Shown here piece by piece: positions 5,883 to 34,631 of a stretch of DNA of 35,306 bases (position 1 is the first letter of the stretch; each line of letters opens with the position of its first letter). Location: the IMG/VR virus record IMGVR_UViG_3300037440_000216, positions 1-35,306 of that record, one strand, 5' to 3'. A program made the position numbers and the translations under genes. A model generated the notes under the pieces. The model saw nothing but the letters and a program-made list of their open reading frames with translations, searched no databases and was not told where the DNA came from. Source of the DNA: a virus. Lineage: Duplodnaviria; Caudoviricetes.

Positions 5883-6761
5883 TCAGAGCGTCCTAGCATC
5901 GTGCGCGGCCCGGTAAATCGGCTTCAACAACTCGACAACCGCCGCGGCATCGTGAAACCGCTGGACATGGGCCAGGCCGCGTTCAGACCACGTCGCGCGG
6001 ACGGCAGGGTCGGCCATAGCCACCAAAGCCTCGTAAATGGTGTCCTCAGTCGCCTCGTAGAAAGGCAGCTCCCCGAACCGGCTGCGCATCTCGGCGAGAG
6101 TACCAGGCGCCCCGCCGCAGATCACCGGGAGACCCATCCCCCACGCCTCGATTGCGTTGCTGCCGTAGCCGAGGATGACCTGGTCGAAGTAGACGTCGAC
6201 CGTCCCTTTGCGGCTCAGGCATTCGGCCCACGTCTTGCGCTCGGTCAATACCAGCTCGACGTTGACCTCCCGACGTAGGCGCTTCACCGCGGCGATCAGA
6301 CCGTCGGTGGATTTGATTGCGCGCCTCGTCGGGGAGTGGCCGACCCGTAGCACCCCGTCGTCGACCGGAGCGCGGTGAGACATCAACCAGTCGAGGTCAT
6401 AGGGTGCCGGACACCACGTCAACTCGTCGGGTGCCAACAACCAGAGGTCTAGTGTGGATGCCAGCCCGGCCGCCCCTCGGGCTCGCTGCTCGTTCAGGAA
6501 TCGGCCGGCGTTGGCTCGGAACCCTGTCCCGTGATAGTGGACGACGGTCGGCATCAGTGGGAGACTTCCGATTCTGTTGTTGGCGTGGACTACATCGAAA
6601 GTCAGGGGGTCGGCGCGAGCCAAGTCCCGCGGGTAATGGATGTAGTTGACCGACCGCGCCACCTGGCGATAATCCCAGTCGGTGTGAGCGTCGAAGGCCC
6701 GTTTGAGAAGGTGTCCGACCCCGCCGCGGTCAGCGCCTGGCGAGTAGTTGAGTATCCTCAT
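5883..6761 (-). CDS. Glycosyltransferase, GT-B fold (GT4-like)
   Basis: MRIL...GGV N-terminus, DVVH, HYHGT, VGHSPTRRAIK, DQVILGYGSNAIEAWGMGLPVI. Confidence 0.85.
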   Translation of the reverse strand: MRILNYSPGADRGGVGHLLKRAFDAHTDWDYRQVARSVNYIHYPRDLARADPLTFDVVHANNRIGSLPLMPTVVHYHGTGFRANAGRFLNEQRARGAAGLASTLDLWLLAPDELTWCPAPYDLDWLMSHRAPVDDGVLRVGHSPTRRAIKSTDGLIAAVKRLRREVNVELVLTERKTWAECLSRKGTVDVYFDQVILGYGSNAIEAWGMGLPVICGGAPGTLAEMRSRFGELPFYEATEDTIYEALVAMADPAVRATWSERGLAHVQRFHDAAAVVELLKPIYRAAHDARTL

Positions 6762-7425
6762 ACCGGGAAGGCTCCGTGAACCGTTCGCGGACTAGCCGCC
6801 CCGCGTTGTGCCGCCACGACTCGGCAACCACAGAGATCACGTCGGCGTCGGGTTTCGGCATACCCCTGCCGTGAATCTTCGGGTCATAGGTCGGGATGAC
6901 ATTGTCGAGCCCGGCGACGTAGAGAACCTTAAAGCCTGCCCCGCCGGCCGACTCGATCAGGTCGAGCGTTGCCGCTGCTCGAGTTCTGTCGATCAGCATC
7001 GGTCGGTGAATCGCGCCGCAAGGCACTTGCTCGGGGTCGTAGCCCTGTGCCACCATGATCGACACCGACGCTTTTACAGCCTTGGTGTAGGTGCCGTGGT
7101 TGGGATAGTGGCGGATGTGGTCAGCAATGGAGTATTTGCGGACGTAGACACCGGGGGTCCAGGTAGTCATCGGGAAGGTATCGTCAGCGTTGTAGACGAA
7201 CTCGGGCACATCCAACCAGGCAACGACGCGGCGAAGGTGGCCCAAGACGTTGATGTAAGGGGCGCTGAAATTGGGCGAGTCGATGTGGTGATCTGGCTCG
7301 ATGGTCGTCGGACGCTCCCCCACTGTGACAATACGGGTCACGCCCGCGCACTCGGTCAGGGCGCGGGTTGTGTAAGGGAGACTGGCCGGACGGTTCCGGC
7401 CTATCGGGATGACTGCGGTGGTCAC
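6730..7425 (-). CDS. Stealth-like sugar-phosphate transferase / phage glycosyltransferase (divergent)
   Basis: LPYTTRAL (cf. LRYSLRSL), IVTVGERP, EFVYNADDTF (cf. FxxxNDDxF), HRPMLID, C-terminal FTEPSRYE. Confidence 0.65.
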   Translation of the reverse strand: MTTAVIPIGRNRPASLPYTTRALTECAGVTRIVTVGERPTTIEPDHHIDSPNFSAPYINVLGHLRRVVAWLDVPEFVYNADDTFPMTTWTPGVYVRKYSIADHIRHYPNHGTYTKAVKASVSIMVAQGYDPEQVPCGAIHRPMLIDRTRAAATLDLIESAGGAGFKVLYVAGLDNVIPTYDPKIHGRGMPKPDADVISVVAESWRHNAGRLVRERFTEPSRYEDTQLLARR

Positions 7426-11036: not shown

Positions 11037-12672
11037 CAGGGAAAAACGACTCGGGCGTCGCGACCAGTGGCGGCCCGGTAGCCACAAACGACACCGTGTA
11101 AGACCGGATGCGGCCCACCTTCACCACTTGGATGCTCTCGGCGTCGGGTGACATCCACTGTGGGGGCAAGTCGGTGGGAGCGTAGTGGACCGTCATCTCA
11201 GCGAGCACCGCTTCGATCTCGGCGAGGGACGGCAGGGACGAGTCGATGTCGGAAACGGGGAAAGTTAGGGTGTAGTCGCGTCCGCCGGGCGCCCCGGTCA
11301 CGACGGTGGGCAGACCGCCGCCGATCGGTTGGAACGCTCCGAAGGGACGAACCCGGCCCCAGGACCGGTCCGGGCAGATGACAGCCGTCACACAGCCGAA
11401 GGTGCGCAGACGGTCGTTCTCGCCGTAGGGGTAGGGAACCTCGGCGGTGTCTGTATCCGACCAGTCGGTGGCGATCAGGATGCCGTCTACCAGACCCCAA
11501 TACCTGACCCGGTAGGTGAGGACACAGTCGTGGTCGGGAATCGAGCACTGCCCTTCTTTGGCGTAGGGGAAGATGCAGTCATTCCAACAGTCGTCGGTGC
11601 TTTCGATGGCGGCCACCCGGACAAAACCGTCGCTGTCACAGTCGGACCGCTGAACCTCAGTGACGACCAGACCGGAGTCGAACTGCGGCTCACCCGGCGA
11701 AGACGGGGAGACCGACGAGAAGCAGACCTCGACCAGGTCGTCGGCGCTGTCATAAGTGACCACCAGATCGGGCGGGTCGGGTGGGGTGAAGTCCATCTCG
11801 AAAGCGACCGACTCAATGTCGGAGGCAAATGCGCTGTTGACCCTGATCGTGGAGTAAGCCTCGAAATAGGCGACATAGTCACCGTTAGGGATCGGTTGGC
11901 CGGGGATCGAAGTCGGGGGCGGCCCGCTCCCTTCGAACGTGTTGACCGTGGCGAAGGCCGGATCGAACGGGGCGAACCCGCCCAGCAGGGTTGTGGCGAG
12001 CGTGTAGAGGTAGATGCGCCATGACCGCCCATTGAGACCGTCGAAGTCGACGGAGTCGAAAGCGAACGTCGGTGTGGTGGTGTCGGTGATCGGCGTGGTA
12101 GCGGTCCCTGCGCCGTCCAACACTTGGGCAGTGAAAACCGGTTTGTTGCGGCAGTCGATGTCCATTTTCAATTCGGCGGCACCTACCGCCGCCGCCGTCC
12201 CTAATGATCCTCCGGGTGCGGCGTTGACGAAGTAGAGGAACTCAACCGCGCCAGCGCCGGCTCCTATGTCCTCCGCCGACCACGCTGTCGACCGATCCAA
12301 GACCACACACTGGAGATCGGTGACAGCCGTGGTGAAGTCGGCAAAGACGAAATACCCCTGCGGTGATGTATTGACCCTCGCCCCGCGCATCCGTGCGTTA
12401 GTGGGGTTGTTATTAACAACACGGGTCCACCGCGCTCGAAGGCGGATCAGATGCCGCTCATGGTCGGCGGGGGGTGTGTGGGTGCCCAACGAGAAACTGA
12501 GTGTGGCCGAGTCGAGAGCACCGACAGCGTCAAGCCGAGCGAATGTATCGGGGTCGTCGTCTGACGTGTTGGTTACGAGCGTCCCTGAGTTCGCCGGTGT
12601 CGTGCAGTCCGCTTGAGCCACCCATCCGCCGTCAGCGTTGAGAGATTGGGGGACCAGCGTGTCGATCTGCAT
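11029..12672 (-). CDS. Minor tail protein (Dit-like position, Ig/FN3-like beta domains)
   Basis: Immediately after the tape measure gene; PPDPPDL and LTYRVR beta motifs; internal SPSSP. Confidence 0.65.
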   Translation of the reverse strand: MQIDTLVPQSLNADGGWVAQADCTTPANSGTLVTNTSDDDPDTFARLDAVGALDSATLSFSLGTHTPPADHERHLIRLRARWTRVVNNNPTNARMRGARVNTSPQGYFVFADFTTAVTDLQCVVLDRSTAWSAEDIGAGAGAVEFLYFVNAAPGGSLGTAAAVGAAELKMDIDCRNKPVFTAQVLDGAGTATTPITDTTTPTFAFDSVDFDGLNGRSWRIYLYTLATTLLGGFAPFDPAFATVNTFEGSGPPPTSIPGQPIPNGDYVAYFEAYSTIRVNSAFASDIESVAFEMDFTPPDPPDLVVTYDSADDLVEVCFSSVSPSSPGEPQFDSGLVVTEVQRSDCDSDGFVRVAAIESTDDCWNDCIFPYAKEGQCSIPDHDCVLTYRVRYWGLVDGILIATDWSDTDTAEVPYPYGENDRLRTFGCVTAVICPDRSWGRVRPFGAFQPIGGGLPTVVTGAPGGRDYTLTFPVSDIDSSLPSLAEIEAVLAEMTVHYAPTDLPPQWMSPDAESIQVVKVGRIRSYTVSFVATGPPLVATPESFFPDE

Positions 12673-14549
12673 TAGCGGACCACCCTAGCCCTGCTCAACC
12701 TCTCCAACCTCTCCTCGATAGCGTCGGCGACCATGTTCGCGTCGGCCTGTGTTGCCCCGCCAGAGATGGACACCGAGATCGACCCGACAGTTAGGCCGGT
12801 GCTGATCTGGTTATTGGGGATGACCGTACTCGACACCCTCGGAACGACGATCTCGGGGCCGAGTTCTCCCGTCACATACGGAATGTTGGGGCTCATTGGG
12901 CCACCACCGGCTCGGCCGCCGATGTTAGAACTGATCTGCGTACCCAGGACTTCGTTAATCCTGATCGACTTGTCGGTGAACTTGAATGCTTCAAGGGCAT
13001 TGAACTGGTCGGCCAGCAGTTCGGCCTGTTCGCGAGTCAGTCCCAGTTCGGTCTGCTGTCTTATGAACGCCTCACGGGTCAGGTCGGTGTTGACCCTGAC
13101 ATCTTCGGTCGCCTCTTTCAGGTCGAGGTTGGCTTTGGACAAATCCTCCACGGCGAGAATGTACTCGGGGGTGCCCGTCTTCCCTGCGTCGATCAACGCG
13201 TTAACAGCCTCTTGCGCCGCAGCCTGATCTCTGGTGGCCTCGGTCAGTGCGAACATGGGGTCGAATTGGGCACGCAGTTGATCCTGGCGATTTTTCAGCC
13301 GTTCGGCGTTGGTGACAATTTCCCGCGTCAGTTCCTCGGTTTCCTCAGCCAACCCCATCGTCCCGTCTTCGAGGAGCACCATTCCTAACTCGTTGGCGGC
13401 GAGTTGGGCCTCCTGTTCGGCCAGGGCCTCGGCGTGCTCGTTGGCGAGAATGCGGTCGAGTTGTTCGACCTCCTCGGCGGTGTAACCGATCTGGGTAAGG
13501 AAATCCTTCTGTGATTGGGTGAGGGGTTCGGACTCGTCAGCCGTGAGGATCAACGTCTCTGCGAGGTCTTCGAGCGACGTGCCGTAGGTCTGATTGACGG
13601 TGATAAGCGCTTGCAACGTGTCGGAGGACGCTCCGGTCGTTATCTCGAACCGCTGGACGGCGGACTGCGCCGAGTTGAGTTTGCCCGTCAACTGAGCGAA
13701 CCCGGTAGCCAACAACCCCAAGGTCTGGGCGCCCAACAACTTGACCTGTGTCGTCAGCTGGGCGAAGGGGACGAGGGCTTCACCGACCCGTGCCTTGGCA
13801 TTCTCCATCTCGGCTGCGGCGATCCGCTGGGCGTTGGCAAGATCGGTGGACGTGTTGGCGAAGTCGCCGGCCACCTTCTCTGTCTGCTCCATGATGGTGA
13901 GGTATCGGGCGGTCACCTTCTGAGATGCTGTCATCTCGTCGCCGACCTCGATGATCCCAGCGGCGAGTGCAGTCTGCTCAACGGTCGCAGCGGACACGTC
14001 GATACCAAACTTGCGTAGGGGTTCGGACTCGCCGGCAAGACCCGACCGGAACTTCTCAAACCCTTCGGATACTTCGAGGTTCATTACCGACGCAAAGTCG
14101 GCGATCCGGGTGGTCAGCGTGTCGAGGACTTCGGGGACGGACAGGCCGAGGTCTGCGGCGATCTTGTCGGTGAACGCAGAGATAGACACCGACAGGGTAT
14201 TGAACTCGGAGTTAGACAACCCGAGGTTGCGGGCGGCGGCCTGCCCTAGCTTCTGGACTTCATCAGCGTTGCTACCAAATGAGACATTGACCGCGTTAAT
14301 AGACTCATTGAGGTCGGAGTAAGCGCGGATGCTGTCCTGTGCGAACCGGGCCACACCTGCCAGCGCCCCTACCGCCGCACCGGCCAGAGCCACCTTGGCT
14401 ATTGCTCCGACGTTCTTGGTTGCCTTCCCGAGCTTGCCCATCTCCCCCGTGGCGCCTTGGGCGCCTTTGGTTACCCCTTGGTTGAGGTCTCTCTCAAACC
14501 CGGCCGTGTTCGCCCGGACATCGACAAAGGCGTCGCCAAGGGAGGGCAT
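12672..14549 (-). CDS. Tape measure protein
   Basis: 625 aa, Ala-rich and helical; LGDAFVDVRA N-terminus, SDLNES, GESEPLRKFGI, GDFANTS, RAGGGP...VTGELGPE. Confidence 0.9.
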   Translation of the reverse strand: MPSLGDAFVDVRANTAGFERDLNQGVTKGAQGATGEMGKLGKATKNVGAIAKVALAGAAVGALAGVARFAQDSIRAYSDLNESINAVNVSFGSNADEVQKLGQAAARNLGLSNSEFNTLSVSISAFTDKIAADLGLSVPEVLDTLTTRIADFASVMNLEVSEGFEKFRSGLAGESEPLRKFGIDVSAATVEQTALAAGIIEVGDEMTASQKVTARYLTIMEQTEKVAGDFANTSTDLANAQRIAAAEMENAKARVGEALVPFAQLTTQVKLLGAQTLGLLATGFAQLTGKLNSAQSAVQRFEITTGASSDTLQALITVNQTYGTSLEDLAETLILTADESEPLTQSQKDFLTQIGYTAEEVEQLDRILANEHAEALAEQEAQLAANELGMVLLEDGTMGLAEETEELTREIVTNAERLKNRQDQLRAQFDPMFALTEATRDQAAAQEAVNALIDAGKTGTPEYILAVEDLSKANLDLKEATEDVRVNTDLTREAFIRQQTELGLTREQAELLADQFNALEAFKFTDKSIRINEVLGTQISSNIGGRAGGGPMSPNIPYVTGELGPEIVVPRVSSTVIPNNQISTGLTVGSISVSISGGATQADANMVADAIEERLERLSRARVVR

Positions 14550-14791
14550 TAGGAGAACTCCCCCTCGAAGGCGGTAAACGACTTAGCCATCTCAGCGTCG
14601 GCCCATGGCCCCGACGTTGGGGCGACACCGGGAGGCGGCAGCGACAACCTGCCCTCGAAGACCCGCCAGTCGTTGTCCGTCATGCGGGCTTTCAACCAGG
14701 CCAGGACACGGTTACAGAATCTGTCGAACGGCAGAGCCAACAGGTCTTCGGAGTGGTTACCGTCGATCGCTTCCCAGTGAGTAGCCGCCAC
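14549..14791 (-). CDS. Tail assembly chaperone, frameshifted C-terminal part (gpGT-like)
   Basis: The -1 frame is open from the slippery site (PYAAARLIQVAATHWE...); lies directly before the tape measure gene. Confidence 0.75.
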   Translation of the reverse strand: MAATHWEAIDGNHSEDLLALPFDRFCNRVLAWLKARMTDNDWRVFEGRLSLPPPGVAPTSGPWADAEMAKSFTAFEGEFS

Positions 14792-14796
14792 TTGAA

Positions 14797-15114
14797 TCAG
14801 TCTGGCGGCTGCGTAGGGGGGCGGCCTGCAACCTCCTCCATCAGACCGGACACCACGTCGATCAGGGTGACCGGGGTCAGCGGATCATTGAAGTCTTTTA
14901 GTCGCCCGACCAAGAAGTCGGAGTCCTCATCAGAGAGCCCGGCGGACAGCCAGTCGAGTTGGACCCTGACCCGCTCGTCTAACTCGGCGTCGTTAGCCAG
15001 CCAGACCGCCGTTGTCTTCGGTGGTTGAAATTTGAACTTACGTCCGTCGAGGGTGAACGTGATTGGTTTCCCGTTGGCCCGCTGGACTGCGGACTCGAAT
15101 ACGAGTTTGCTCAT
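14797..15114 (-). CDS. Tail assembly chaperone (gpG-like)
   Basis: PITFTLDG...RLKD..DPL...GRPPT; position upstream of the tape measure gene. Confidence 0.8.
   Translation of the reverse strand: MSKLVFESAVQRANGKPITFTLDGRKFKFQPPKTTAVWLANDAELDERVRVQLDWLSAGLSDEDSDFLVGRLKDFNDPLTPVTLIDVVSGLMEEVAGRPPTQPPD
14815..14821 (-). other. -1 programmed ribosomal frameshift site C CCC CCT
   Basis: In-frame CGC CCC CCT near the end of the chaperone gene; a -1 slip joins it to ORF 14549-14791. Confidence 0.65.
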
Positions 15115-15452
15115 GCGCGGAAGTCTCCCGGTGTTAGTCGTTGGATTGCGTTGGTTAAGAATGGGGCAGGGCTGATCCAGCGGGTGCCCTGGTGCTGGTA
15201 GAAGGCATACCGAGCGGCGGAGGACACACCGAACCTGGTCTCGAACTGGTTTGAGCCTTGGAATGTGGCGGCGATGCTGTCTCTCATAAACCCGGTGTCC
15301 ACTCGCCCGAAGGCGTTGACGGACGCCTTGGCACGCTCGACCGTGACCTCGGCGGCGTGGCGGGTGGCCCGGCCGACGATGCCCGACAGGTCGTTCATTT
15401 GGGCGATGGCCCGCAGGTTCGGCTGGAATCTAACCGACGTCTGGAGTAGCAT
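15111..15452 (-). CDS. HK97-gp10-like head-tail/tail completion protein
   Basis: VDTGFMRDSI, YAFYQHQGT, PAPFL; GAGGAG before ATG 15452. Confidence 0.75.
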   Translation of the reverse strand: MLLQTSVRFQPNLRAIAQMNDLSGIVGRATRHAAEVTVERAKASVNAFGRVDTGFMRDSIAATFQGSNQFETRFGVSSAARYAFYQHQGTRWISPAPFLTNAIQRLTPGDFRA

Positions 15453-15630
15453 CGCTCTCCTCATCGGCTGGCTTCGCTGCCGGTTTCTTGCGCGGTGGTT
15501 TGGGTGTGACGTCGGTCAGCACACCCGCGGCGATCAACTCTTTGATGATCGGGGTCGCATCAACCTCTTTGACCTGGCCGCGGCGGACCACCGTCGTATT
15601 CAGTTTCGCAGTCACCATCACAGTTTTCAT
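15430..15630 (-). CDS. Small hypothetical virion-operon protein
   Basis: AAGGAG RBS; Lys/Pro-rich tail. Confidence 0.65.
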   Translation of the reverse strand: MKTVMVTAKLNTTVVRRGQVKEVDATPIIKELIAAGVLTDVTPKPPRKKPAAKPADEESDATPDVG

Positions 15631-15638
15631 GTCGCTCC

Positions 15639-16136
15639 TTACGGGCTGGACTCACACCATAGGCTAGACCGAAGATAGGCCGTCCACTCGCCACCTATGA
15701 CCCCGCCTTGCGGGACGAACTGGGTCCACTCGTTGACCACAATATCGACGGCTCCCTCGGTAGCCGGGTAGCAACAGGCAAGCGCCCGGAACAGCGCCCC
15801 CTGGTCGCAGACCAGCGACAGAGCGTCGGCAGTCTGCTCGTCGGGGGTCGGGTAGCCGCCCTTTTCTATCCGGTGAGTGCCTGACTGACAGCGGATGATT
15901 CCGAGACCGACCTGGACGGCAAGCCCGGACACGCAGTTGCGCAGAGTCTGGAAACGGTTGGGGAAGTCGTCCGACGGGAAGGCCGAAATGACTCTTACCC
16001 AGAGTTGGCCGCACGGGTTGTCAAATGCGACCTGGCCGGGTGACACGAACACGTCGTCAGGAACGACCTGGCCGGTGTCCTCCAACTCGGTGACGGCACA
16101 GTCGAGGATTGCTTCGAGGTCGGCGACGAGGGTCAC
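15639..16136 (-). CDS. Tail terminator-like protein
   Basis: PG.VAFD..CGQLWVR, GIIRC, PQGGVIGGEW; position in the head-tail module; ends CESSP. Confidence 0.65.
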   Translation of the reverse strand: MTLVADLEAILDCAVTELEDTGQVVPDDVFVSPGQVAFDNPCGQLWVRVISAFPSDDFPNRFQTLRNCVSGLAVQVGLGIIRCQSGTHRIEKGGYPTPDEQTADALSLVCDQGALFRALACCYPATEGAVDIVVNEWTQFVPQGGVIGGEWTAYLRSSLWCESSP

Positions 16137-16858
16137 GGCGACGACGGCGACGGTTCAGCGGCCCAGGTTATCCGGCGGATCGTCGGGAAGTCCGGCGAGT
16201 GGACAGCGCCCGCCATCATCGGGGCGTTAGCATTCTCGACCCACATATCCACTTCCGGCAGTCCGAACTTGGCAGAGGGGTCGCTGAATACGTTACGACC
16301 CATCTGTGCGGACAACCCCTGTCTAGTGATGGCGCGAAGGTTCCGGGGCAGACGGCAGGAATCGTCATTGCACAGCGCCTTCGCCAACTCACAAGCAAGG
16401 ATGCCGGTCACCAAGCCAGCACCGGCGGGCGGGGCGATGCCGAGCTCGTAGTCCACCCGGAATCCGTCAGGGTCGAGCGGGTCGGCGTTGGTCGGCCAGG
16501 ACTCGCCGTCGAGCCTGACCAGCCACTGGTAATCATCTATCCGGTAGCTGAACTCGTCGAGCACCACCCCGTCGATGACGATCTCTGTCACTGATGACAC
16601 CGGGCCATTAAGTCGCAACTCGGGAACGCTGCTACACCCGCAGGACCGCATACTGTTCCGACACCCGCCGCAGATGATCCACGAGTCAACACAGGGGAGC
16701 ACCGACACCGGACATGGCCCGTAGAGTTTCCCGGTAGCGGCCCACAGACTGAAAGACGCCAGCGCTTTGACCTCGGCGATACCCTCCGTTGCCATGTTGT
16801 CCAGAACTTCGCAGGCACATTCAAGGTAGGGCCATGAGCAGGGGCCGTTAACGTCCAT
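16133..16858 (-). CDS. Head-to-tail adaptor (Cys-rich, actinophage type)
   Basis: LWAATG..YG.C, GPV..VTEI..DG, LACELAKA...CRLP...TRQG, GLPEVDMW; ends EPSPSSP; alternative start at 16864. Confidence 0.75.
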   Translation of the reverse strand: MDVNGPCSWPYLECACEVLDNMATEGIAEVKALASFSLWAATGKLYGPCPVSVLPCVDSWIICGGCRNSMRSCGCSSVPELRLNGPVSSVTEIVIDGVVLDEFSYRIDDYQWLVRLDGESWPTNADPLDPDGFRVDYELGIAPPAGAGLVTGILACELAKALCNDDSCRLPRNLRAITRQGLSAQMGRNVFSDPSAKFGLPEVDMWVENANAPMMAGAVHSPDFPTIRRITWAAEPSPSSP

Positions 16859-16867
16859 GGACATAGA

Positions 16868-17173
16868 CTAGACCACCGTCACAATGCCGACCTGCCGCAC
16901 AGGGAATTCGGGGTTAGACGATGCCCGCCACCACATTCGCCACCGCCCCACAGCCAGGGTGACCAGTCCGCCCGCGGCGGCAGTGGTGGACGCACGGATC
17001 AATACCTCGACGTTGGGGTCCACAAAGGGGGCGTTGAACCAGTCGCCGCCCACAGGTTGGGTGTCGGGAGGAACGACCGCGACTTGATGGGTCAGCGTGG
17101 CCGGGTCCACGGGTGCTGTGCTGATCGGGAAGCTCACTATTTCGAGGCTCTGCCGGGGCAAGATTATTTTCAT
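16868..17173 (-). CDS. Small beta-rich structural protein (fibre cassette)
   Basis: ATGA overlap; LAVGRWRMWW...NPEFPV pattern. Confidence 0.65.
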   Translation of the reverse strand: MKIILPRQSLEIVSFPISTAPVDPATLTHQVAVVPPDTQPVGGDWFNAPFVDPNVEVLIRASTTAAAGGLVTLAVGRWRMWWRASSNPEFPVRQVGIVTVV

Positions 17174-18651
17174 GTTCGCCGCAAGCCTCCTAAGTCCCAA
17201 CGCTGGCCGGTGTCGCCGGGATTCCAACGTTGCGCCATGCTACCTGTTGCCCACTGCGTTTGCAGGGAGCCTATGACGACGACCATATCGGTAGGAATGC
17301 CCGCAACGACTGAGGACACCGCAGCACGCAAGGCCACCCGTGCAGCCGCCGTGGTGACCACGCCTCCGCCGGTGACAATGTCAGTGGTCCCAGCGCGGAG
17401 TGCCAGGCGTGCAGCGACAGTATCTACAACGCTTTGCGCCGCGATCGCCGACGTGACAGCGGAGCGGAGTGCGAAGCGACCGCCGACGGTGTCAACGAAG
17501 GTCGCACCTAGCACCAGCGACGTGGCACCGGATCGCAGAACCAGACGAGCGGCGGCGGTGTTAACAGTCCATCCACCAGCATCGACCGAAGTGGCACCGG
17601 CACGCAGGGCGAACCGGCCCGCAAGCGTGTCGACGGTTGCAGCCGCGGTGTCGACGGAAGACACGGCGGAACGGAGAGCGACGTGAGACGCAAGGGTGTC
17701 AACGGTCACGCTGCCCCCGGCCGCCTGAACTGTCGTGACCGCTGCGCGGAGGGCTAGTCGAGCAGCCGCAGTGCCAATGGTTGCTGCTCCAAGGACAATA
17801 GAGGAAACTCCAGCGCGGAACGCCAGACGGGCGGCGGCGGTATCCACAATGGACACTGCCAAGTCGACTGTCGTCACGGCAGCGCGGAGTCCTAGGCGAG
17901 CCGCCGTCGTGTCGACCGTGGTGGCGCCCAGGTCTAGGGTGGTTGCTGCTCCACGCAAGGCCACCCTTGCAGCGGACGTATCCACAACCACCGCGCTGGC
18001 GCCGAAGGTGACCACGGCGATACCCGCAGACCAGGCGCTATTGGCAGTGCTCGTCCCGGTCGCCGCAACCGGGTTGGTGTTGGCAAGCGCCTGGTCCATA
18101 AACACGGCCATCATGTTCGTGGCGGTCGCACCTGCGGTCCCAGTATCTGCGTAGCCGCGTTGTGTCCATGACCCCGACGGCGCAAGATCGCCTGTCTCGC
18201 CCGTGGCCGTCAGATACCCTATGGCGACAGCCGGGGCCGCAGCAGGGGTCTTGTTCCCCGAGTCGAGAGTGTTGCCGCTACCGGACGCCTCGACAGCCGG
18301 AGAGTCAAGGGTGGCCGCACCTACGTACTCCCCCGCCATGTGGACTTGTCCACGGTTCTGCGTGGTCCCGTAGGTGACGGTTATCGTGTCGCCCGAAACC
18401 AGCGCGGTGGTGAGCACCGAGAACCACATACCCGACCGCGGGTTGTCGGTGATTTCGTTGTAAATCTCGGTGTAGGTGTTGCCCTTGGAGTCGGTGACAC
18501 CCGACGCCGCACCGTTGGCTAACTGGCCGGTGCCAACAAATACGGTGTTCCCCAAGGCGTGGCCTGCGGCATCGACTGGAATATCTAGCGACGTGCCGGC
18601 GGCCTTGGACGTGACCGGCCCGGACAGTCGGACGAAGTCGCCGTCGGGCAT
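17170..18651 (-). CDS. Putative virion fibre/appendage protein with ten 23-aa repeats
   Basis: N-terminal beta domain (VTDSKGNTYT); repeats VDTxAARxALRxxxTxxxxG; Trp-spaced C-terminus. Confidence 0.65.
   Translation of the reverse strand: MPDGDFVRLSGPVTSKAAGTSLDIPVDAAGHALGNTVFVGTGQLANGAASGVTDSKGNTYTEIYNEITDNPRSGMWFSVLTTALVSGDTITVTYGTTQNRGQVHMAGEYVGAATLDSPAVEASGSGNTLDSGNKTPAAAPAVAIGYLTATGETGDLAPSGSWTQRGYADTGTAGATATNMMAVFMDQALANTNPVAATGTSTANSAWSAGIAVVTFGASAVVVDTSAARVALRGAATTLDLGATTVDTTAARLGLRAAVTTVDLAVSIVDTAAARLAFRAGVSSIVLGAATIGTAAARLALRAAVTTVQAAGGSVTVDTLASHVALRSAVSSVDTAAATVDTLAGRFALRAGATSVDAGGWTVNTAAARLVLRSGATSLVLGATFVDTVGGRFALRSAVTSAIAAQSVVDTVAARLALRAGTTDIVTGGGVVTTAAARVALRAAVSSVVAGIPTDMVVVIGSLQTQWATGSMAQRWNPGDTGQRWDLGGLRRT
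17293..17985 (-). repeat. Coding tandem repeat, 10 x ~69 nt (23 aa)
   Basis: Units such as VDTSAARVALRGAATTLDLGATT and VDTTAARLGLRAAVTTVDLAVSI; degenerate at the DNA level. Confidence 0.85.
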
Positions 18652-18693
18652 GTCAGGCCCTAATCAGAATCGAAGCCGTCGCCGGCCCACTCA

Positions 18694-19122
18694 TCACGGG
18701 TTCTCGGCAATCACCCATTCATTGTCAGATGCGCCTTCGCCGTTGACAACAAAACCGGCTCCATTCGCGGCCGCGCCAAACCCAGCATCTGAGAACGAGA
18801 TCAAGGGACTGTCAGCGTCGTTGGTGACCAACTTGAACAGCACCTGGCCCATAGGGGTTTCGTTGTCTAACGCCCCGTAATCGACCGGCGCGGCGAGCAA
18901 CCGGGCCTCGTTGGTGGTGTCGTTCTCGACCACCGACTTGGTGCCCAGGGTCTGGCGAGCATAGGACACGTCGGTCAGTTCGCCAGTGATGTCGGCCACA
19001 AAGTTGTGGTCGTCGTCGTAGACATAGGAGGCGTCAACCAGGAGCGCCCGAACAGTGTCCGAGGCCCAGACCAGCGACCCGTCGGCGAGTATCAACTTGC
19101 CTCGGTTGTAAACCCCTGCCAT
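18694..19122 (-). CDS. Small structural protein (fibre-cassette anchor type)
   Basis: VYNRGK...WASDTVRALLV..Y...DHNFVAD...YARQTL...DADSPLI; TAATG overlap with the tail tube gene. Confidence 0.7.
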   Translation of the reverse strand: MAGVYNRGKLILADGSLVWASDTVRALLVDASYVYDDDHNFVADITGELTDVSYARQTLGTKSVVENDTTNEARLLAAPVDYGALDNETPMGQVLFKLVTNDADSPLISFSDAGFGAAANGAGFVVNGEGASDNEWVIAENP

Positions 19123-19790
19123 TACGGGCTACTCGGCGACGGGACGGCCTGGCTACCACAGACGGCGGTCGGGGGAGCGACACAGGTCTTGCGGAGCAGG
19201 GCGATCTGGTTGGCAGCGATCGCCACGTCGAGCGGCGCGGCCGGGTCACCGATCACATCCCACGGCCCGAGTCCCCACTGGCTATTCGCCTCGGTGTATC
19301 CGGTCGTGGTGAATGTGGCCGCGGCGTTCTCGACCACGATGTCGCCGAACTGAGCACCGGCAACGAACGGAACCAGGATGTACCCGAAACAAGCACCCTC
19401 CTCGGCGCACTGGTCGCCGCTGAGCCCGGTCCACACTTCGAGTGCCCACTTCTCATTGTTCTGCCCGGTCTCCACCCGAAACCCGACCGCGTCGGTCCCA
19501 TCCAACTCGACGGGGAATCCGGTGATAAGGCTGATGATGTCAGGATCGACCTGGCACCAGTCGACGTTTACGTTGAGCCGCTTCAACTCGTCGGGCGAAC
19601 GCTCATTGACACACAGCGCCCCGTTGGCGTTTTTCTGTATGAACTCGTCGCCGCTCTCGATCTCGGCGGTCAGCGTGACGGAGATAAACCCGTCGGACAC
19701 CACAAAGAGGTCGGCGACGGCGCCACACTCGTCTAGCTGGGTGACACGGACGGCCTTGCCGCGTACTGTCGTGTAACACTGGGTTGGCAC
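19122..19790 (-). CDS. Major tail (tube) protein
   Basis: RGKAVRVTQLDECG, QKNANGALC, CQVDP, ALEVW, WGLGP; AAGGAG RBS; ends PSPSSP. Confidence 0.85.
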   Translation of the reverse strand: MPTQCYTTVRGKAVRVTQLDECGAVADLFVVSDGFISVTLTAEIESGDEFIQKNANGALCVNERSPDELKRLNVNVDWCQVDPDIISLITGFPVELDGTDAVGFRVETGQNNEKWALEVWTGLSGDQCAEEGACFGYILVPFVAGAQFGDIVVENAAATFTTTGYTEANSQWGLGPWDVIGDPAAPLDVAIAANQIALLRKTCVAPPTAVCGSQAVPSPSSP

Positions 19791-19801
19791 TGTCTATCTC
19801 C

Positions 19802-20551
19802 TTACGGTGAGTCGGTTATCGAAACGGAAACGTTGAAGCACGGGTCGAACACTGCCAGCGCCGGCGCCTCATGGACTGCCAGGTGACGGTTGTCGGTCCA
19901 GTCAACCACCTGAATGCTTTCCCTGCCGCCAAGATCGGCGAAGACCTCCGGGGTGGCAACCAGTTCGTCGGCGAGAGCTGTCTCATAGCCGGGTGACGCA
20001 ACGACAAGGTGGCCGGTGGCTGTGCGCCAGTTGCCCACCAGGTCCATGTGCACCACGTCCGCCGCTACCAACTCGGTGAGTCGGGACGGTGCAACGTGTA
20101 CCCATGCCAAGTGGCCGCGCAGGTTCGATGCGATCAACCCTTCGAGGATCGCCAGAGCCTCGGCTGCGGTTGCTGCCGAACCGGACGCGGTGGCGTCCGC
20201 CAGTGAGGGGTTGCCGGTGACAGCGCCGGTAGCCAACTCGGCTCCGACATTGAACTCGGCCACCACGCTCAGCGCAGTCGCCGCCCGGTCGAGACGTTCT
20301 GTGTCCGAGAGTGTGGTGCAGACCACCGACACTTCGACACCCAGCGGATCGAACTCGGCGATGTCCGTCCCCTGTAATTGCTTCTCCCCTGGAGACGTCG
20401 GACAGAACTGGTGCGACCCGGCGATGAGGCACACTTCGGAGGCGAACTGCACGCCGCGCGTCCAGTTGTCCGGGAGCGATCCTGCCAGGGCGAGGACTCC
20501 CCCCCCAACCGCGGTGGCTGAGGGGAGAGTCGCTGCTGTCGTCAGTGTCAC
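19802..20551 (-). CDS. Second capsid protein (cluster-B-type pentamer-like)
   Basis: Coupled to the major capsid gene; WTRGVQF..C, FDP..V...C, AWVH, T.TG..VV...GY, N...A..E...A.FDPC; ends TDSP. Confidence 0.65.
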   Translation of the reverse strand: MTLTTAATLPSATAVGGGVLALAGSLPDNWTRGVQFASEVCLIAGSHQFCPTSPGEKQLQGTDIAEFDPLGVEVSVVCTTLSDTERLDRAATALSVVAEFNVGAELATGAVTGNPSLADATASGSAATAAEALAILEGLIASNLRGHLAWVHVAPSRLTELVAADVVHMDLVGNWRTATGHLVVASPGYETALADELVATPEVFADLGGRESIQVVDWTDNRHLAVHEAPALAVFDPCFNVSVSITDSP

Positions 20552-22152
20552 GGCGAGGTCTCGACCGCAACGTTGCAGATGCAGGCCGGGTCGATGTCGA
20601 CCGTGATGGTCAGACTGTCGTCGCCTGGATCGTCACACGGGGCCGTCCGTTTGGCTGCACCCTCGAAGGTCTCCATGAACGCCAGCCGGTCGTTGGACTG
20701 GATCAGCGTCTTGTCGACGATCTCGGTACCGAGGTCCAGTGTCCCACCGTCGAGGAACCACCACGTACCCTCGGGGAAGACCCTGATGTCTGTGGTAGAC
20801 GGGAAGTCCACCAAGGCGCCCGCCGCCTGCGCCCCGATGATTGAGTCGTCGAGGGTGTAGGTGACGGTCACGCCACGGGTTGCGAAATACTGCGCAATGG
20901 CAGCGTCCGCCAATCCGGGGGCGCCGGTCTGACCTGCGGGGGCCTGAGCGGTGAAGTGGTCGCGGATTGCGTTCCGCAGCCAGCCGTCGAGGATGACCCG
21001 GAACCCTGTCGCTGTGGACAACCGCTCACGGGAACGGATACCGGCGACCGCACGGTCAACCGCGCCGAGCACACCCTGGATGGTGGGCAGACCCTGGAAC
21101 GTGGCCGCGATCGACTGGGCGTCGATCTGTGCCAACAGGTTCTGCTCCGCTGTCCGGTCGTGGAGTATGCCCAACTGGCCGAGGGCGTTGGCCCACTGCT
21201 CGCCGGAGAATCGTGCCATGAAGTTGCCCACTTCGAGACACGCCGTCACCGCGTCAACGGTGGCAGTGCACTCTGCGTCACAGTCGACATGGGGACACGG
21301 CTTCTCAGCCGGGGACGACGGTGAGACATCGTTCTCCGATGTCCACACAGCCACCGAACCGGCTACCGGATCAAGGCTGGGCCGGGGGGCCGCGATGTAG
21401 CGAACACCGCCGCGGTCGGCACCGAACCGGGTTAGAGCGTCACGCACCGGGCGGCCACGGGAACCGACCAACGGTATCTCGTAGCTGGCCGGGAGCGGCC
21501 CACAGATTCCACCGGCGGCGGCGATAGCCTCGAAGGCCGTCCCGCCCTGGCCGAGCACCTGGTCGATGATCCTTGCAGACCTGTCGCTGTCAGCGTCGAG
21601 GCGGCGGTCTTCGGGTAAGTCCCAGGTCATCCTTACCAGGGTGTCCCGGCCACGGTCCCGACCGCGGGCGTACTGGCTGAACAACTGCGCCACATCCCGC
21701 GTGGTCGAGTTGTGGTCCAGTTTCTCCGATGCGGCCTGTCCGACACCGCGGACCCTCACATCGGGGAACGGGTTGTCGGGTTCGGCGTGGGCGTCGATCC
21801 GCGCCCGCTGGTTCTGCGATGCGAGACGCACGGCCTGTAGGTCTAAGACCTCTGGCTCGGATGCTTCTGCCTCGTCGTCGACCTCATCCTCGTCGACTTC
21901 GACTACCTCCTCCGGCTCGGGGTCGGCGAGCTCGGCCAGTCTAGCGTCCTCCTCGGCCTGTACCTCGGCGCGGCGGGCAAGCTCCTCGTCGATCACGTCG
22001 ATCGCTTGTTTGAGGCTTGTGGCCTCGGCGACATTGCGCGCAGATACCGCCGCGTTCTTGAGGGTGCGGAACTCGGCCTGTGCGTCTAGAAGCTCCTCAT
22101 CGGTGGGGGGCTCGTCGGTTCCCAATCGGGAGAGTATCTGGGTCGGGTCCAT
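20548..22152 (-). CDS. Major capsid protein (cluster-B-type hexamer-like) with N-terminal coiled-coil/acidic scaffold region
   Basis: AAAGGICGP...Y, RGGVRY, KPC..V.C, CLEVGN, FPEGTW..LDGGTLDLG, ND..AF.E; AGGAG before ATG 22152; ends ETSP. Confidence 0.85.
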   Translation of the reverse strand: MDPTQILSRLGTDEPPTDEELLDAQAEFRTLKNAAVSARNVAEATSLKQAIDVIDEELARRAEVQAEEDARLAELADPEPEEVVEVDEDEVDDEAEASEPEVLDLQAVRLASQNQRARIDAHAEPDNPFPDVRVRGVGQAASEKLDHNSTTRDVAQLFSQYARGRDRGRDTLVRMTWDLPEDRRLDADSDRSARIIDQVLGQGGTAFEAIAAAGGICGPLPASYEIPLVGSRGRPVRDALTRFGADRGGVRYIAAPRPSLDPVAGSVAVWTSENDVSPSSPAEKPCPHVDCDAECTATVDAVTACLEVGNFMARFSGEQWANALGQLGILHDRTAEQNLLAQIDAQSIAATFQGLPTIQGVLGAVDRAVAGIRSRERLSTATGFRVILDGWLRNAIRDHFTAQAPAGQTGAPGLADAAIAQYFATRGVTVTYTLDDSIIGAQAAGALVDFPSTTDIRVFPEGTWWFLDGGTLDLGTEIVDKTLIQSNDRLAFMETFEGAAKRTAPCDDPGDDSLTITVDIDPACICNVAVETSP

Positions 22153-27352: not shown

Positions 27353-27696
27353 TCGCCGGCGTTCCTCAGCCGGTAGGCGATGGTGTCCGCCAGGGTCTCT
27401 ACCTGACGGACGAGGTCTGCGTGGTCTGTCCGATCCACCACTGCGAACCAGTCCACCGCCGCCCGCAGTTCCTCGACCGCCGCTGCGATGTGTCCGTCGG
27501 CGGTGGCAAGAATCTGGATTCTCGCCTGGTCAGCGGGCGGCCTCCACACCTTCTCCGTCCCGTCGGCGGGCGGCAGATCGAGGTCGGAGCGCAGCGGACC
27601 CTCCACTGCGCTTGCCACATCGGACGGAATCACCTTGACGTTGCCGAAATCCTGCTCCAACGCAGGCCACACGGGTTGATCGGGGGGCCAGATCAT
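27349..27696 (-). CDS. Hypothetical protein
   Basis: ATGA overlaps at both ends. Confidence 0.6.
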   Translation of the reverse strand: MIWPPDQPVWPALEQDFGNVKVIPSDVASAVEGPLRSDLDLPPADGTEKVWRPPADQARIQILATADGHIAAAVEELRAAVDWFAVVDRTDHADLVRQVETLADTIAYRLRNAGE

Positions 27697-32869: not shown

Positions 32870-34086
32870 TTCGGCACCCAACCGGACCCGACCAGGCCCG
32901 CCATCATCGGCGCAACATGGTTGTGGGCGTGTGCGATAGCGTCCACCTGGTCATCAAATGTTGAATGCGGCCACTCGTCCAACTCCTCCAACAACTCTGA
33001 CGACGACACACCAGGGCCGAGACGGTAACGGCCGCGCTTGACCGCGGTTGCGAACGGCCAGGCCCTCACGACCTTGTTCTGCTCGACCGGCGCCGCGTAG
33101 ACCGGGCCGGCCAGGGGGATTGCGTCCAACTCGCGGCGCAGGGTTTCGACAAACAGGATTCCACTGGCGCCCTTCTCCTCCTCTGCCACCTGCTCTACGT
33201 CGGAACCATCGACGGTTGCGGTCTGGCGTATGAAGTCGACCACGTCCTCCGGGGCCAGCCGCTCCCGTTTGATGTCCGCGATCCAGAACCCATCAGAGTT
33301 GGCGTGAATCAACGCGCCCACCGTCCAGTCGCCGGACTCCGACGCTGAGAAGTCCCAAGCGCGGACCTTCATCGCCACATCGGGCAGCGGCTCCTCTTTG
33401 AGTTGGAAAGTGTCGATGCGGATCGTCCCGTCGTCGGAGTCGAGACCCCGATAGAGAATGTTGTAGTCGTCGTCGGGGATCAGGAGTTGTGTCATGGCGT
33501 CTTGTTCGGCGGACACTACGCCAGCGTCGATCGCGTCTTCCCGGTGTAGTTGGGTATACGTCCAGCCGGGCAACTCCCCTTTCTCGGCGCGCTTAGCCAG
33601 TTTCTTGGCCCAATTGGCGCGGCGGGTGTTGTTGCCGATCAGACGGAACCTGGCGGCGGTGTGCTGAGTCGTCGACGTGATCGCAATCCACGCTTCCAGG
33701 CTGGCCCTGGTCGCCTCGTCCACAACGACCGAGTGATAATCCTCGCCGTAGATGTTGTCCGGCTTGTCCGCCGACCCGAAAAAGATCACCGTCTCGTTGG
33801 GCATGGTGATCGTGTGGTCCGTTTTGTGAATGCTGATCTGTTCGAGGTCGAGCACTTCCTGGTACGCCCGGCGGAACGCAATCGTGGACTGTCCGAATGT
33901 CGGGGCCACCCAGAGGAACCGGCGGTGAGGTCTGCCTATCCGTTCGGTCTCCTCGATCAACCATTGCAGGCAGGCGATGGTCTTCCCGGCCTTCGGGCTT
34001 GCCAGGACGATGGCGTGCTCCTCGGGGTCGCTTATCGCCTCGCGCTGCTTGGGGTAGAGGTCGAGCCGGTTACGCCACGGAATCAT
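32866..34086 (-). CDS. terL: Terminase large subunit
   Basis: LYPKQ, Walker A ASPKAGKT, WVAPT..Q, Walker B VVVDEA; nuclease motifs RAWDFSA...GDWTVG, EEEKGASG, K..RA, DDQVDA. Confidence 0.9.
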   Translation of the reverse strand: MIPWRNRLDLYPKQREAISDPEEHAIVLASPKAGKTIACLQWLIEETERIGRPHRRFLWVAPTFGQSTIAFRRAYQEVLDLEQISIHKTDHTITMPNETVIFFGSADKPDNIYGEDYHSVVVDEATRASLEAWIAITSTTQHTAARFRLIGNNTRRANWAKKLAKRAEKGELPGWTYTQLHREDAIDAGVVSAEQDAMTQLLIPDDDYNILYRGLDSDDGTIRIDTFQLKEEPLPDVAMKVRAWDFSASESGDWTVGALIHANSDGFWIADIKRERLAPEDVVDFIRQTATVDGSDVEQVAEEEKGASGILFVETLRRELDAIPLAGPVYAAPVEQNKVVRAWPFATAVKRGRYRLGPGVSSSELLEELDEWPHSTFDDQVDAIAHAHNHVAPMMAGLVGSGWVPK

Positions 34087-34631
34087 CTGCCGTACACCCA
34101 CGGCCCGGCGCCGTCCTCCGGCTCAGACATCAACTCCCAGGCGCCGGGCACGTCCTTAGTCCACTCGTGGTAGCGCATATGCGCGGCCTGTTTGGGGTGA
34201 GGCCGTTTAGACGGTGAGAACACCACAACAAACCGAGACGCTTCAAACAGCCGCATCATGTACCGTTCGTAGACATCGTCGTCGGTCAGGTGAAATATCA
34301 CATCGACAGACAGGCCCATTTCCCCGAAGGCGTAGACGCCGGCCCGACTGGTCGGCTCCCATCTGACGTACTGGTGAGCGGGGAAGCGGAGTAGGCCGAC
34401 CCCGACAGCCGTCCTCGAAACGTCTACCCCGCAATAGTGGATGTTGTTCAGGTTGAGTAGTTCTGTCAGGTAGCCGTCGCCGCAACCCCAGTCCACGATC
34501 GAAAGGATTCTGTTTCGAGCGGTGAATGCGTTTATCGCAGCGGCCTTCGCTTGAGCGTTGGTTCCTCTCGACCCTGCCCCAGAGCTGCCGCCTGTGGCGT
34601 ACCGGGCCTCCCAGTAGTCAGTCGCCGTCAT
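34083..34631 (-). CDS. Class I SAM-dependent methyltransferase (non-DNA type)
   Basis: YWEARY..GG.SGAGSRG, IVDWGCGDG, YCGVDVS, SVDVIFHL. Confidence 0.85.
   Translation of the reverse strand: MTATDYWEARYATGGSSGAGSRGTNAQAKAAAINAFTARNRILSIVDWGCGDGYLTELLNLNNIHYCGVDVSRTAVGVGLLRFPAHQYVRWEPTSRAGVYAFGEMGLSVDVIFHLTDDDVYERYMMRLFEASRFVVVFSPSKRPHPKQAAHMRYHEWTKDVPGAWELMSEPEDGAGPWVYGR

What the first reader, a model, noticed from the sequence alone, without database searches (positions are those of the whole stretch)
11695..21324. Shared Ser-Pro tag (SPSSP or C-terminal -SP) on virion proteins: candidate sequon of a virion-modification system
Seen: five structural proteins end in Ser-Pro. These are the major capsid (ETSP, stop 20548), second capsid (TDSP, 19802), tail tube (PSPSSP, 19122), head-tail adaptor (EPSPSSP, 16133) and terminator-like protein (CESSP, 15639). 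SPSSP also occurs internally in the major capsid (21310-21324) and a minor tail protein (11695-11709). The four SPSSP copies use different codons (TCG CCG AGT AGC CCG; TCG CCG TCG TCG CCG; TCA CCG TCG TCC CCG; TCC CCG TCT TCG CCG), so the motif is selected at protein level and is not a DNA repeat. None of the non-structural proteins I called ends in SP. Established: some mycobacteriophages O-glycosylate C-terminal serines of capsid and tail-tube proteins with their own glycosyltransferases. Inference: SP/SPSSP is a proline-directed acceptor tag read by the transferases at 5883-7425, coating head, neck and tail.
Basis: partly seen in the sequence, partly recalled or inferred. Interest (0 to 1): 0.88.

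Follow-up and report, generated by a model that had tools for sequence, protein, structure and literature searches.

The report
Serine-proline sugar tags on phage virion
Five particle proteins of this uncultured phage end in serine-proline, and other phages that carry either of its two predicted sugar-transfer gene families mostly have serine-ended particle proteins too, so the phage likely coats its own particle with a predicted phosphate-linked sugar attached at these serines, with the proline apparently optional.

Summary
Five virion proteins end in Ser-Pro (5 of 18 virion-module genes, 0 of 34 others), and all four SPSSP copies in six frames lie in structural genes (0.007 expected). The transferase pair is a GT4-like enzyme (5883-6761) and a divergent Stealth-fold sugar-1-phosphate transferase (6730-7425; top fold hits GNPTAB and CpsY). 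Phages picked by either enzyme family have Ser-ended virion proteins: 20 of 20 capsid and tail-tube tails for GT4, 34 of 37 tail tubes for Stealth. The proline is optional: no GT4-family tail ends in SP, and Stealth phages end in S, SP, SV, SA, SL or SQ. Terminal Pro is a habit of this virion family, so SP reads as an acceptor Ser placed before it. The capsid-loop SPSSP sits in a conserved turn and persists in six close relatives without a Ser tail, so internal sites are doubtful. Phylogenetically controlled tests were underpowered, and no sugar was measured. Verdict: likely virion (phospho)glycosylation, a new variant of the mycobacteriophage system, but not a strict Pro-directed sequon. This scan noted Stealth-plus-Ser-tail and Ser-Pro-tag phages before on other DNA.

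The parts
6730..7425 (-). Divergent Stealth-fold sugar-1-phosphate transferase, 231 aa; predicted priming enzyme
   Evidence: phrog_7999 E 2e-14; 44 of 70 alignment members hit Stealth_CR2, the window copy itself does not; family profile hits GNPTAB E 7e-14 and CpsY E 7e-7; model pLDDT 95.8, top Foldseek hits GNPTAB and CpsY; D81, D82, H140 invariant in 70 rows
5883..6761 (-). GT4-like (GT-B) glycosyltransferase, 292 aa, overlapping the Stealth-like gene by 32 bases
   Evidence: No Pfam hit for the window copy; of 115 family members 29 hit PF13439, 29 PF13524, 6 PF00534; profile hits a D-inositol 3-phosphate glycosyltransferase E 2e-4
34083..34631 (-). SAM methyltransferase, candidate glycan O-methyltransferase
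   Evidence: Methyltransferase Pfam hits below cut-off; homologues lie in 10 of 47 close GT4-family loci, mostly adjacent to the GT4 gene, and in the SP-tailed cassette of L113
20548..22152 (-). Major capsid (hexamer-type) protein, 534 aa from the ATG, C-terminus ETSP (SP codons 20551-20556)
   Evidence: phrog_777; HK97 fold, core aligned to about residue 520, last residues pLDDT 54-66; 22 of 32 closest homologues (window included) end in SP
21310..21324 (-). Internal SPSSP, capsid residues 277-281, in the predicted E-loop; doubtful acceptor
   Evidence: Ordered loop, pLDDT 85-88; D275 invariant and P278 nearly invariant in 99 rows; SPxSP kept in 31 of 32 close homologues, 6 of them without a Ser tail
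19802..20551 (-). Second capsid (pentamer-type, name recalled) protein, C-terminus TDSP (SP codons 19805-19810)
   Evidence: phrog_779; L331 homologue ends ITTSP, L113 homologue LGGSP
19122..19790 (-). Tail tube protein, C-terminus PSPSSP (SPSSP 19125-19139)
   Evidence: phrog_792; of 55 close homologues 9 end in SP, 5 in SPxSP, 33 have Ser in the last two residues, 17 have none in the last four
16133..16864 (-). Head-tail adaptor, C-terminus EPSPSSP (SPSSP 16136-16150)
   Evidence: phrog_783; L331 homologue ends SAGSP
15639..16136 (-). Terminator-like neck protein (label inferred from position), C-terminus CESSP
   Evidence: phrog_810; in Stealth-selected loci 39 of 46 distinct homologue tails have Ser in the last two residues, 9 end in SP
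11695..11709 (-). Internal SPSSP, residues 322-326 of minor tail protein 11029-12672
   Evidence: phrog_5795; falls in a roughly 5-residue insertion relative to phiAsp2 Pas29; FN3-like look-alikes at score 0.83-0.86, a lead only

Best explanation
Five virion proteins of this phage end in Ser-Pro, and the serines in these tails are likely the attachment sites for a predicted phosphate-containing sugar coat made by the phage's own Stealth-like and GT4-like enzymes. Shown: the tails, the two enzyme families, and the co-occurrence of Ser-ended virion proteins with each family in other phages. Inferred: that the tails are modified at all (about 0.7); that the Stealth-like enzyme transfers a sugar-1-phosphate from a host nucleotide-sugar to the serine, the GT4-like enzyme extends it and the methyltransferase caps it (about 0.45 for this order). 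The acceptor is best read as a serine at or next to a flexible C-terminus. The proline is this lineage's version of the last residue, kept from a family habit of Pro-ended virion proteins. The two internal SPSSP copies are possible extra sites (capsid loop about 0.3, minor-tail insert about 0.45).
For: Stealth fold with the metal-binding Asp pair and the proposed catalytic His kept (roles from passages of PMC9388126). GT4-family loci: 11 of 11 distinct capsid and 9 of 9 tail-tube tails have Ser in the last two residues, in unrelated virion types; 0 capsid or tail-tube proteins among 75 random of 286 non-Ser ORFs. Stealth-selected loci: 54 of 80 hold this virion family; tail tube 34 of 37, terminator-like 39 of 46, capsid 6 of 9, against 37 of 251 tails in 63 records with no transferase found. 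Tail-tube clusters at 70%: 12 of 14 with virion-type transferases have two or more Ser tails, 4 of 32 without (p 3e-6); 8 of 10 and 4 of 32 without the four hand-added rows (p 1.5e-4). Fionnbharth has the Stealth-like gene and ends capsid AGSGS and tail tube GSV; five related phages without a hit have 0 of 5 and 1 of 5. L113, distant from the window, has SP on 4 of 5 proteins and a Stealth-like gene. phiAsp2, found through the minor tail protein, has three transferase genes and 4 of 5 Ser tails. G036 (CheckV 100%) has a Ser-ended tail tube and Stealth as the only transferase found by four searches. Che8 and Corndog capsid and tail tube end in Ser.
Against: No modification was measured. Independent-pair tests were not significant: 5 pairs, 3.4 same way and 0 opposite, median p 0.25; with any GT 11 pairs, 3.3 and 0.8, p 0.5. 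Without hand-added rows and without the four locally run profiles the association weakens to p 0.049, and with Pfam GT1/GT2 alone to p 0.088. The Stealth-selected set is only 7 clusters at 70% (5 with two or more Ser tails), and adaptors there are 0 of 42. No SP-tailed close relative with its transferase region was found; L331 is 3.6 kb and its MAG had no hit for either family. Terminators of four of five Stealth-negative cluster-K-type phages also end in Ser. G054 has a gp110-type gene and no Ser tail; large freshwater relatives have a GT2 and mostly no multi-Ser tails. The window's enzyme has Ala80 where GNPTAB has Asn406, and the Arg986 and Asn1151 equivalents were not located. Only 5 of 47 GT4-family loci hold a Stealth-like gene within the fetched DNA, so GT4 may prime instead.
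Confidence: 0.65

Rival explanations
1. Same coat, other order: the GT4-like enzyme puts the first sugar directly on serine, and the Stealth-like enzyme adds sugar-phosphate to that sugar, alone or alternately with GT4 to build a phosphodiester-linked polymer. This lies within the best explanation's general claim and differs in the first linkage.
For: 42 of 47 close GT4-family loci show no Stealth-like gene in the fetched DNA, yet all capsid and tail-tube tails found there carry Ser. Stealth-GT4-Stealth fusions in L184 and L199 look like a polymerase. Characterised Stealth enzymes act on sugar hydroxyls (PMC9388126 and PMC1285062 passages).
Against: G036, rated complete, has Stealth as the only transferase found (the window's GT4 profile was run only on its 20-kb locus). 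The GT4 loci were seen only up to 10 kb either side. Sugar-1-P-Ser exists in Dictyostelium (reference titles in PMC1285062).
Confidence: 0.3
2. Strict proline-directed sequon: the divergent enzymes of this lineage need Ser-Pro, and so modify internal SPSSP loops as well as tails.
For: All five tails end in SP, not one in bare Ser. 30 of 31 capsid homologues with a C-terminal SP also have a loop SP; P0324 lacks both. The minor-tail SPSSP is an insertion. The window's Stealth-like enzyme forms a distinct subfamily (P0241-P0245). SP ends occur in 12 of 149 distinct tails of Stealth-selected loci against 1 of 251 in transferase-negative and 0 of 35 in Stealth-negative transferase-positive records.
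Against: Both enzyme families go mostly with non-SP serine tails. Loop SP persists in 18 of 47 capsid homologues with no terminal Ser, and the loop-tail link is not significant after phylogenetic control. phiAsp2 has an SP end with no Stealth hit among 14 proteins tested. No locus for the window's Stealth subfamily was found, so enzyme and motif could not be paired.
Confidence: 0.2
3. The tails are structural or protective: terminal Pro resists carboxypeptidases or suits gene overlap, S-P forms turns, and the transferases act on something else, such as the host surface or DNA.
For: 49 of 251 tails in transferase-negative relatives end in Pro. Two of the five CCG-stop junctions supply the next gene's GTG start. 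The capsid loop is a conserved [S/T/N/D/A]-P turn.
Against: This does not explain Ser before the Pro on five unrelated proteins (40 of those 49 are T/A/V-P, 1 is SP), nor the Ser tails that follow the enzymes in unrelated virion types. Neither enzyme shows an obvious signal or membrane segment (sequence).
Confidence: 0.15
4. The serines are modified, but by an enzyme not in the window: a host kinase or glycosyltransferase, or a Maf-like or gp110-like gene in a missing part of the genome.
For: CheckV rates the record 51% complete and linear. Earlier scan notes link Ser-Pro tags to Maf-like genes in other phages (unchecked).
Against: No PF01973 match in the window, no kinase among 45 proteins scanned, no gp110-like match. 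A relative of 35.8 kb with direct terminal repeats is rated only 41% complete, so the window may be near whole.
Confidence: 0.1

Closest known systems
Virion O-glycosylation of mycobacteriophages Che8, Corndog and Myrna (Freeman et al. 2023, PMID 37329881; paper not held, seen through passages of PMC12363180, PMC11256854, PMC11600133)
   Same: Phage-encoded soluble sugar transferases plus a methyltransferase; capsid and tail-tube proteins with a serine at the C-terminal end (Che8 TGS and DGS, Corndog VGS and GDS).
   Different: No homologue of the essential Che8 gp110 / Corndog gp38 family in the window. The serine is next to last, before Pro. Five proteins carry it, including adaptor and terminator-like. 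One enzyme is a Stealth-fold phosphotransferase. The virion is of the Rosebush/phiAsp2 two-capsid-gene type, and the nearest binned relative is in an Acidimicrobiaceae MAG.
Stealth family hexose-1-phosphate transferases (GNPTAB, M. tuberculosis CpsY; PF11380)
   Same: Fold, Asp-Asp and His-x-Pro motifs.
   Different: Compact 231-aa form at 11-18% identity in structural alignments; YTTRA replaces RYSLRS and ADD replaces NDD; the window copy scores no PF11380 hit; the characterised members read about here act on sugar acceptors, whereas a protein serine is proposed here.
Ser-phosphoglycosylation in Dictyostelium (GlcNAc-1-P-Ser; seen as reference titles and a passage in PMC1285062)
   Same: The proposed linkage, and Stealth proteins were proposed there as candidates for the enzymes.
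   Different: Eukaryotic secretory pathway on internal sites; here a phage enzyme in a bacterial cytoplasm on virion C-termini, untested.
Cultured phages with the same module type: Streptomyces phage TurkishDelight (gp20 GT, gp22 Stealth-like), Mycobacterium phage Fionnbharth (gp6), Actinoplanes phage phiAsp2 (pas33-35)
   Same: Transferase genes together with Ser-ended capsid, tail-tube or neck proteins.
   Different: Tails mostly end in bare Ser or Ser-Val; gp22 and gp6 are annotated as hypothetical; I saw no report of their modification.

Membership tests
Che8/Corndog-type virion O-glycosylation | Phage-encoded glycosyltransferase genes | tested here: met
   GT4-like family and Stealth-fold enzyme
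Che8/Corndog-type virion O-glycosylation | Essential gp110/gp38-family transferase | tested here: not met
   No match in the window by phmmer or by profile A4; the record may be incomplete
Che8/Corndog-type virion O-glycosylation | Serine as the last residue of capsid and tail tube (site recalled from Freeman 2023; sequences) | tested here: not met
   Serine is next to last, followed by Pro, in all five proteins
Che8/Corndog-type virion O-glycosylation | Glycan shown on virion proteins | not testable with these tools
   Needs mass spectrometry of particles
Stealth hexose-1-phosphate transferases | Stealth catalytic fold | tested here: met
   Top 12 listed Foldseek rows are GNPTAB or CpsY, E 6e-7 to 3e-5, TM 0.44-0.62
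Stealth hexose-1-phosphate transferases | CR2 sequence region (PF11380) | tested here: inconclusive
   44 of 70 members match at E 0.01 or better (best 8e-10), the window copy does not; three locus homologues scored 14-27 bits against a cut-off of 39
Stealth hexose-1-phosphate transferases | Asp407/Asp408 and His956 equivalents | tested here: met
   D81, D82, H140 invariant and aligned to NDD and HMP of GNPTAB through the family profile; roles from PMC9388126
Stealth hexose-1-phosphate transferases | Arg986, Asn1151 and Asn406 equivalents | tested here: inconclusive
   Asn406 is Ala80; the printed alignment ends before the other two and no superposition was available
Stealth hexose-1-phosphate transferases | Sugar-1-phosphate transfer activity | not testable with these tools
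   Needs an assay
GT4 (GT-B) glycosyltransferases | GT4 profile match | tested here: inconclusive
   Family members hit PF13439, PF13524 and PF00534 weakly, the window copy none; no structure predicted
Proline-directed sequon | Pro after the Ser required wherever the enzyme family occurs | tested here: not met
   0 of 20 GT4-family tails and 12 of 149 Stealth-family tails end in SP; the window's own Stealth subfamily could not be tested
Maf-type (PF01973) Ser-Pro tagging noted by earlier scan reports | Maf-like gene in the genome | tested here: not met
   No candidate in the window; record may be incomplete

The most novel reading that the evidence does not exclude
A divergent phage Stealth subfamily is a cytoplasmic protein phosphoglycosyltransferase that reads Ser-Pro, attaches sugar-1-phosphate to five C-termini and to internal SPSSP loops of capsid and tail, and with the GT4 partner builds a capsule-like phosphoglycan over the whole virion: a portable two-to-five-residue tag for serine phosphoglycosylation in bacteria.
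Probability: 0.2. Interest if true: 0.82.

Novelty: new variant of a known kind. Interest (0 to 1): 0.55.

Why it matters
The papers I could read describe virion glycosylation only for a few mycobacteriophages. This case would extend it to another virion type and a likely Acidimicrobiia host, to neck proteins, to a next-to-last serine, and to a Stealth-fold enzyme, which implies a phosphate-containing, negatively charged coat. The Stealth-like family is common: 302 related stretches in IMG/VR and 53 cultured-phage records, where it is annotated as hypothetical. The idea can be tested now in cultured phages. My searches found no paper on a phage Stealth enzyme acting on virions; the library lacks most subscription papers, including Freeman 2023 and its supplements, which may list such genes.

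Tried and rejected
Single-protein locus search with the adaptor found nothing. The window GT4 has no match among cultured phages. No IMG/VR locus for the window's Stealth subfamily. Broad Stealth alignments gave no search pattern; a six-sequence one worked. A locus scan for the gp110 family did not complete. Bulk end-in-Ser rate over all genes near GT4 (12.7%) against tail-tube loci (10.3-10.6%) is uninformative; the signal is confined to virion proteins. The wide VIA search of the Stealth model was not finished when the budget ended. PF13524 and the window's GT4 profile were not run on the whole records G001-G088, so some 'transferase-negative' records may hold one; G052 and G070 show this, being negative for Pfam GT1/GT2 but positive by a local profile. 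No terminal repeat in the window, and read contigs gave no listed extension of the right end. A DNA-repeat origin is rejected by the codons. A kinase reading is not favoured because none was found. No complex prediction was sent: enzyme-substrate pairs are poorly served by it.
Full report
Observation. The window is a linear 35,306-base virus record, 63% GC, rated 51% complete. Its structural module is of the two-capsid-gene actinophage type (PHROG 776-810; phiAsp2 homologues are annotated as similar to Rosebush gp15, gp16 and gp21). The nearest binned relative, at 67% capsid identity, lies in an Acidimicrobiaceae MAG, so the host is likely an acidimicrobial actinobacterium. Chance is excluded: SPSSP 4 observed against 0.007 expected, and 5 of 18 virion-module genes against 0 of 34 others end in SP.

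The enzymes. Neither gene has a Pfam hit of its own. The 292-aa protein belongs to a large family (328 hits) whose members hit GT4-type profiles weakly. The 231-aa protein has 73 relatives in the 50% library. 44 of 70 aligned members hit Stealth_CR2, the profile finds GNPTAB and CpsY in the PDB, and the confident model has these as its top fold matches. D81, D82 and H140 are invariant and align with Asp407, Asp408 and His956, which passages of PMC9388126 describe as ribose- and metal-binding and as the likely base. The window copy is divergent, with Ala for Asn406, so its donor may differ; I could not locate the Arg986 or Asn1151 equivalents. The two families recur together: in 5 of 47 close GT4 loci, twice as Stealth-GT4-Stealth fusions. 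A homologue of the methyltransferase at 34083-34631 lies in 10 of those 47 loci. The essential transferase family of Che8 and Corndog (gp110/gp38, PMC12363180 passage) is not in the window.

Tails in relatives. The tail is a variable extension. Among 55 close tail-tube homologues, 33 have Ser in the last two residues, 9 end in SP and 17 have no Ser in the last four (P0042 left out as aberrant). Among 117 capsid homologues (the best 120 of 962, three with broken or fused ends dropped), 31 have SP within the last four residues, 22 of them among the 32 closest. L331 carries SP on capsid, second capsid and adaptor. L113, about 40% identical in the tail tube and elsewhere on the tree, carries SP on four of five proteins beside a cassette with a Stealth-like gene.

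Co-occurrence. I scored five virion proteins in 88 IMG/VR records plus four rows added by hand (window, L113, L091, TurkishDelight). Whole records were searched with the Stealth and gp110 profiles and with Pfam GT1 and GT2. Local profiles ran on the whole or nearly whole record for 17 and on the locus for the rest. At 70% tail-tube clusters, 12 of 14 with virion-type transferases have two or more Ser tails, against 4 of 32 without (p 3e-6); counting any GT it is 12 of 17 against 4 of 29 (p 2e-4). Several profiles were seeded from Ser-tailed loci. Without the hand-added rows p is 1.5e-4; using only the whole-record searches it is 0.049; using Pfam alone 0.088. Independent-pair tests pointed the same way but were not significant. 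Two sets chosen by enzyme are less exposed to this bias. In loci of the window's GT4 family, 11 of 11 capsid and 9 of 9 tail-tube tails carry Ser in the last two residues (profile seeds came from Ser-ending hits with tails trimmed, and none of 75 random non-Ser ORFs was a capsid or tail tube). In the best 80 of 302 Stealth loci, 54 hold this virion family, with tail tube 34 of 37, terminator-like 39 of 46, capsid 6 of 9, second capsid 5 of 15 and adaptor 0 of 42; these form only 7 clusters at 70%. The background is 37 of 251. Among cultured phages, Fionnbharth has the Stealth-like gp6 and Ser at the ends of capsid and tail tube, while five relatives without a hit have 0 of 5 and 1 of 5, though four of their terminators end in Ser. 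TurkishDelight and phiAsp2 fit. G054 (gp110-type gene, Thr-rich ends, no Ser) and the large freshwater relatives with a distant GT2 do not.

Is proline part of the signal? Mostly not. No GT4-family tail ends in SP. Stealth phages end in S, SP, SV, SA, SL or SQ, with SP in 12 of 149 distinct tails. Terminal Pro is common in transferase-negative relatives (49 of 251, 40 of them T/A/V-P, 1 SP). The simplest reading is an acceptor Ser placed in front of a customary terminal Pro. SP is still more frequent with Stealth than without, and the window's own enzyme subfamily could not be paired with tails, so a local preference for Pro is open.

Internal copies. The capsid model has the HK97 fold. By topology residues 277-281 lie in the distal E-loop, which is ordered (pLDDT 85-88), while the C-terminal extension is not (54-66). 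That the E-loop faces outward is recalled, not computed. The motif is a variant of a family-wide D-x-[S/T/N/D/A]-P turn. 30 of 31 SP-tailed capsids have a loop SP and one close relative lacks both, but 18 of 47 capsids with no terminal Ser keep a loop SP and the link vanishes under phylogenetic control. The minor-tail copy is a short insertion relative to phiAsp2 Pas29 in an FN3-like part, which fits a tag better but rests on one comparison genome.

Mechanism and standing. I commit to a phage-made, phosphate-containing glycan on the tail serines, primed by the Stealth-like enzyme and extended by the GT4-like one. The priming order rests on a complete record with a Ser-ended tail tube and Stealth as the only transferase found (G036) and on the precedent of sugar-1-P-Ser in Dictyostelium; the reverse order is a close rival. 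It works like the Che8/Corndog system but fails two of its features (gp110-type enzyme, terminal Ser), so I file it as a new variant. Freeman 2023 was not held; I saw passages of PMC12363180, PMC11256854, PMC11600133, PMC1285062, PMC9388126 and PMC7150772, and the C-terminal-serine site is recalled. Searches showed no paper on phage Stealth enzymes or Ser-Pro virion tags. Earlier scan notes describe Stealth with Ser tails and Ser-Pro tags with Maf-like genes in other genomes; they are not independent evidence, and the Maf lead was negative here.

Noticed in passing
window 27693-28589 (-): 298-aa ORF with Thr runs and a C-terminal LPFTG followed by a hydrophobic stretch and basic end, the layout of a sortase-anchored cell-wall protein (motif class recalled). 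No Pfam or PHROG hit.
   Followed up: no
window 25517-26371 (-): 284-aa protein with a signal-peptide-like N-terminus and four Thr runs, between portal and recombination genes; possibly a second phage-encoded surface protein.
   Followed up: no
window 32866-34631 (-): The large terminase lies about 7.4 kb from the portal gene, separated by DNA methylase and RecE/RecT genes, with the candidate glycan methyltransferase directly upstream of it.
   Followed up: partly
L184:9167-11650 and L199:6850-9234: Stealth-GT4-Stealth three-domain fusion proteins of 827 and 794 aa in phage contigs.
   Followed up: partly
L244:1273-1959 (Fionnbharth gp6), L245:19305-20015 (TurkishDelight gp22): Genes annotated as hypothetical in 53 cultured-phage records belong to the Stealth-like family, including Gaia, Nebkiss, OneUp, Yvonnetastic and Pumpernickel.
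   Followed up: partly
L113:11600-12139 and L032:7831-8394: A nitroreductase-family gene sits in the structural module of two Stealth-positive phages.
   Followed up: no
G054 (L363): 35.8-kb record with direct terminal repeats, a gp110-type gene and tail tube and adaptor ending in Thr (ITAT, VAPT): possible Thr acceptors.
   Followed up: no
window 17170-18651 (-): 493-aa protein with many imperfect repeats of about 20 residues (DT-AAR-ALR-A-T), no family hit; likely a fibre.
   Followed up: no
L331:3128-3604: An ORF after the adaptor that is not a terminator homologue by my profile (HNH-like start, recalled) also ends in SP.
   Followed up: no
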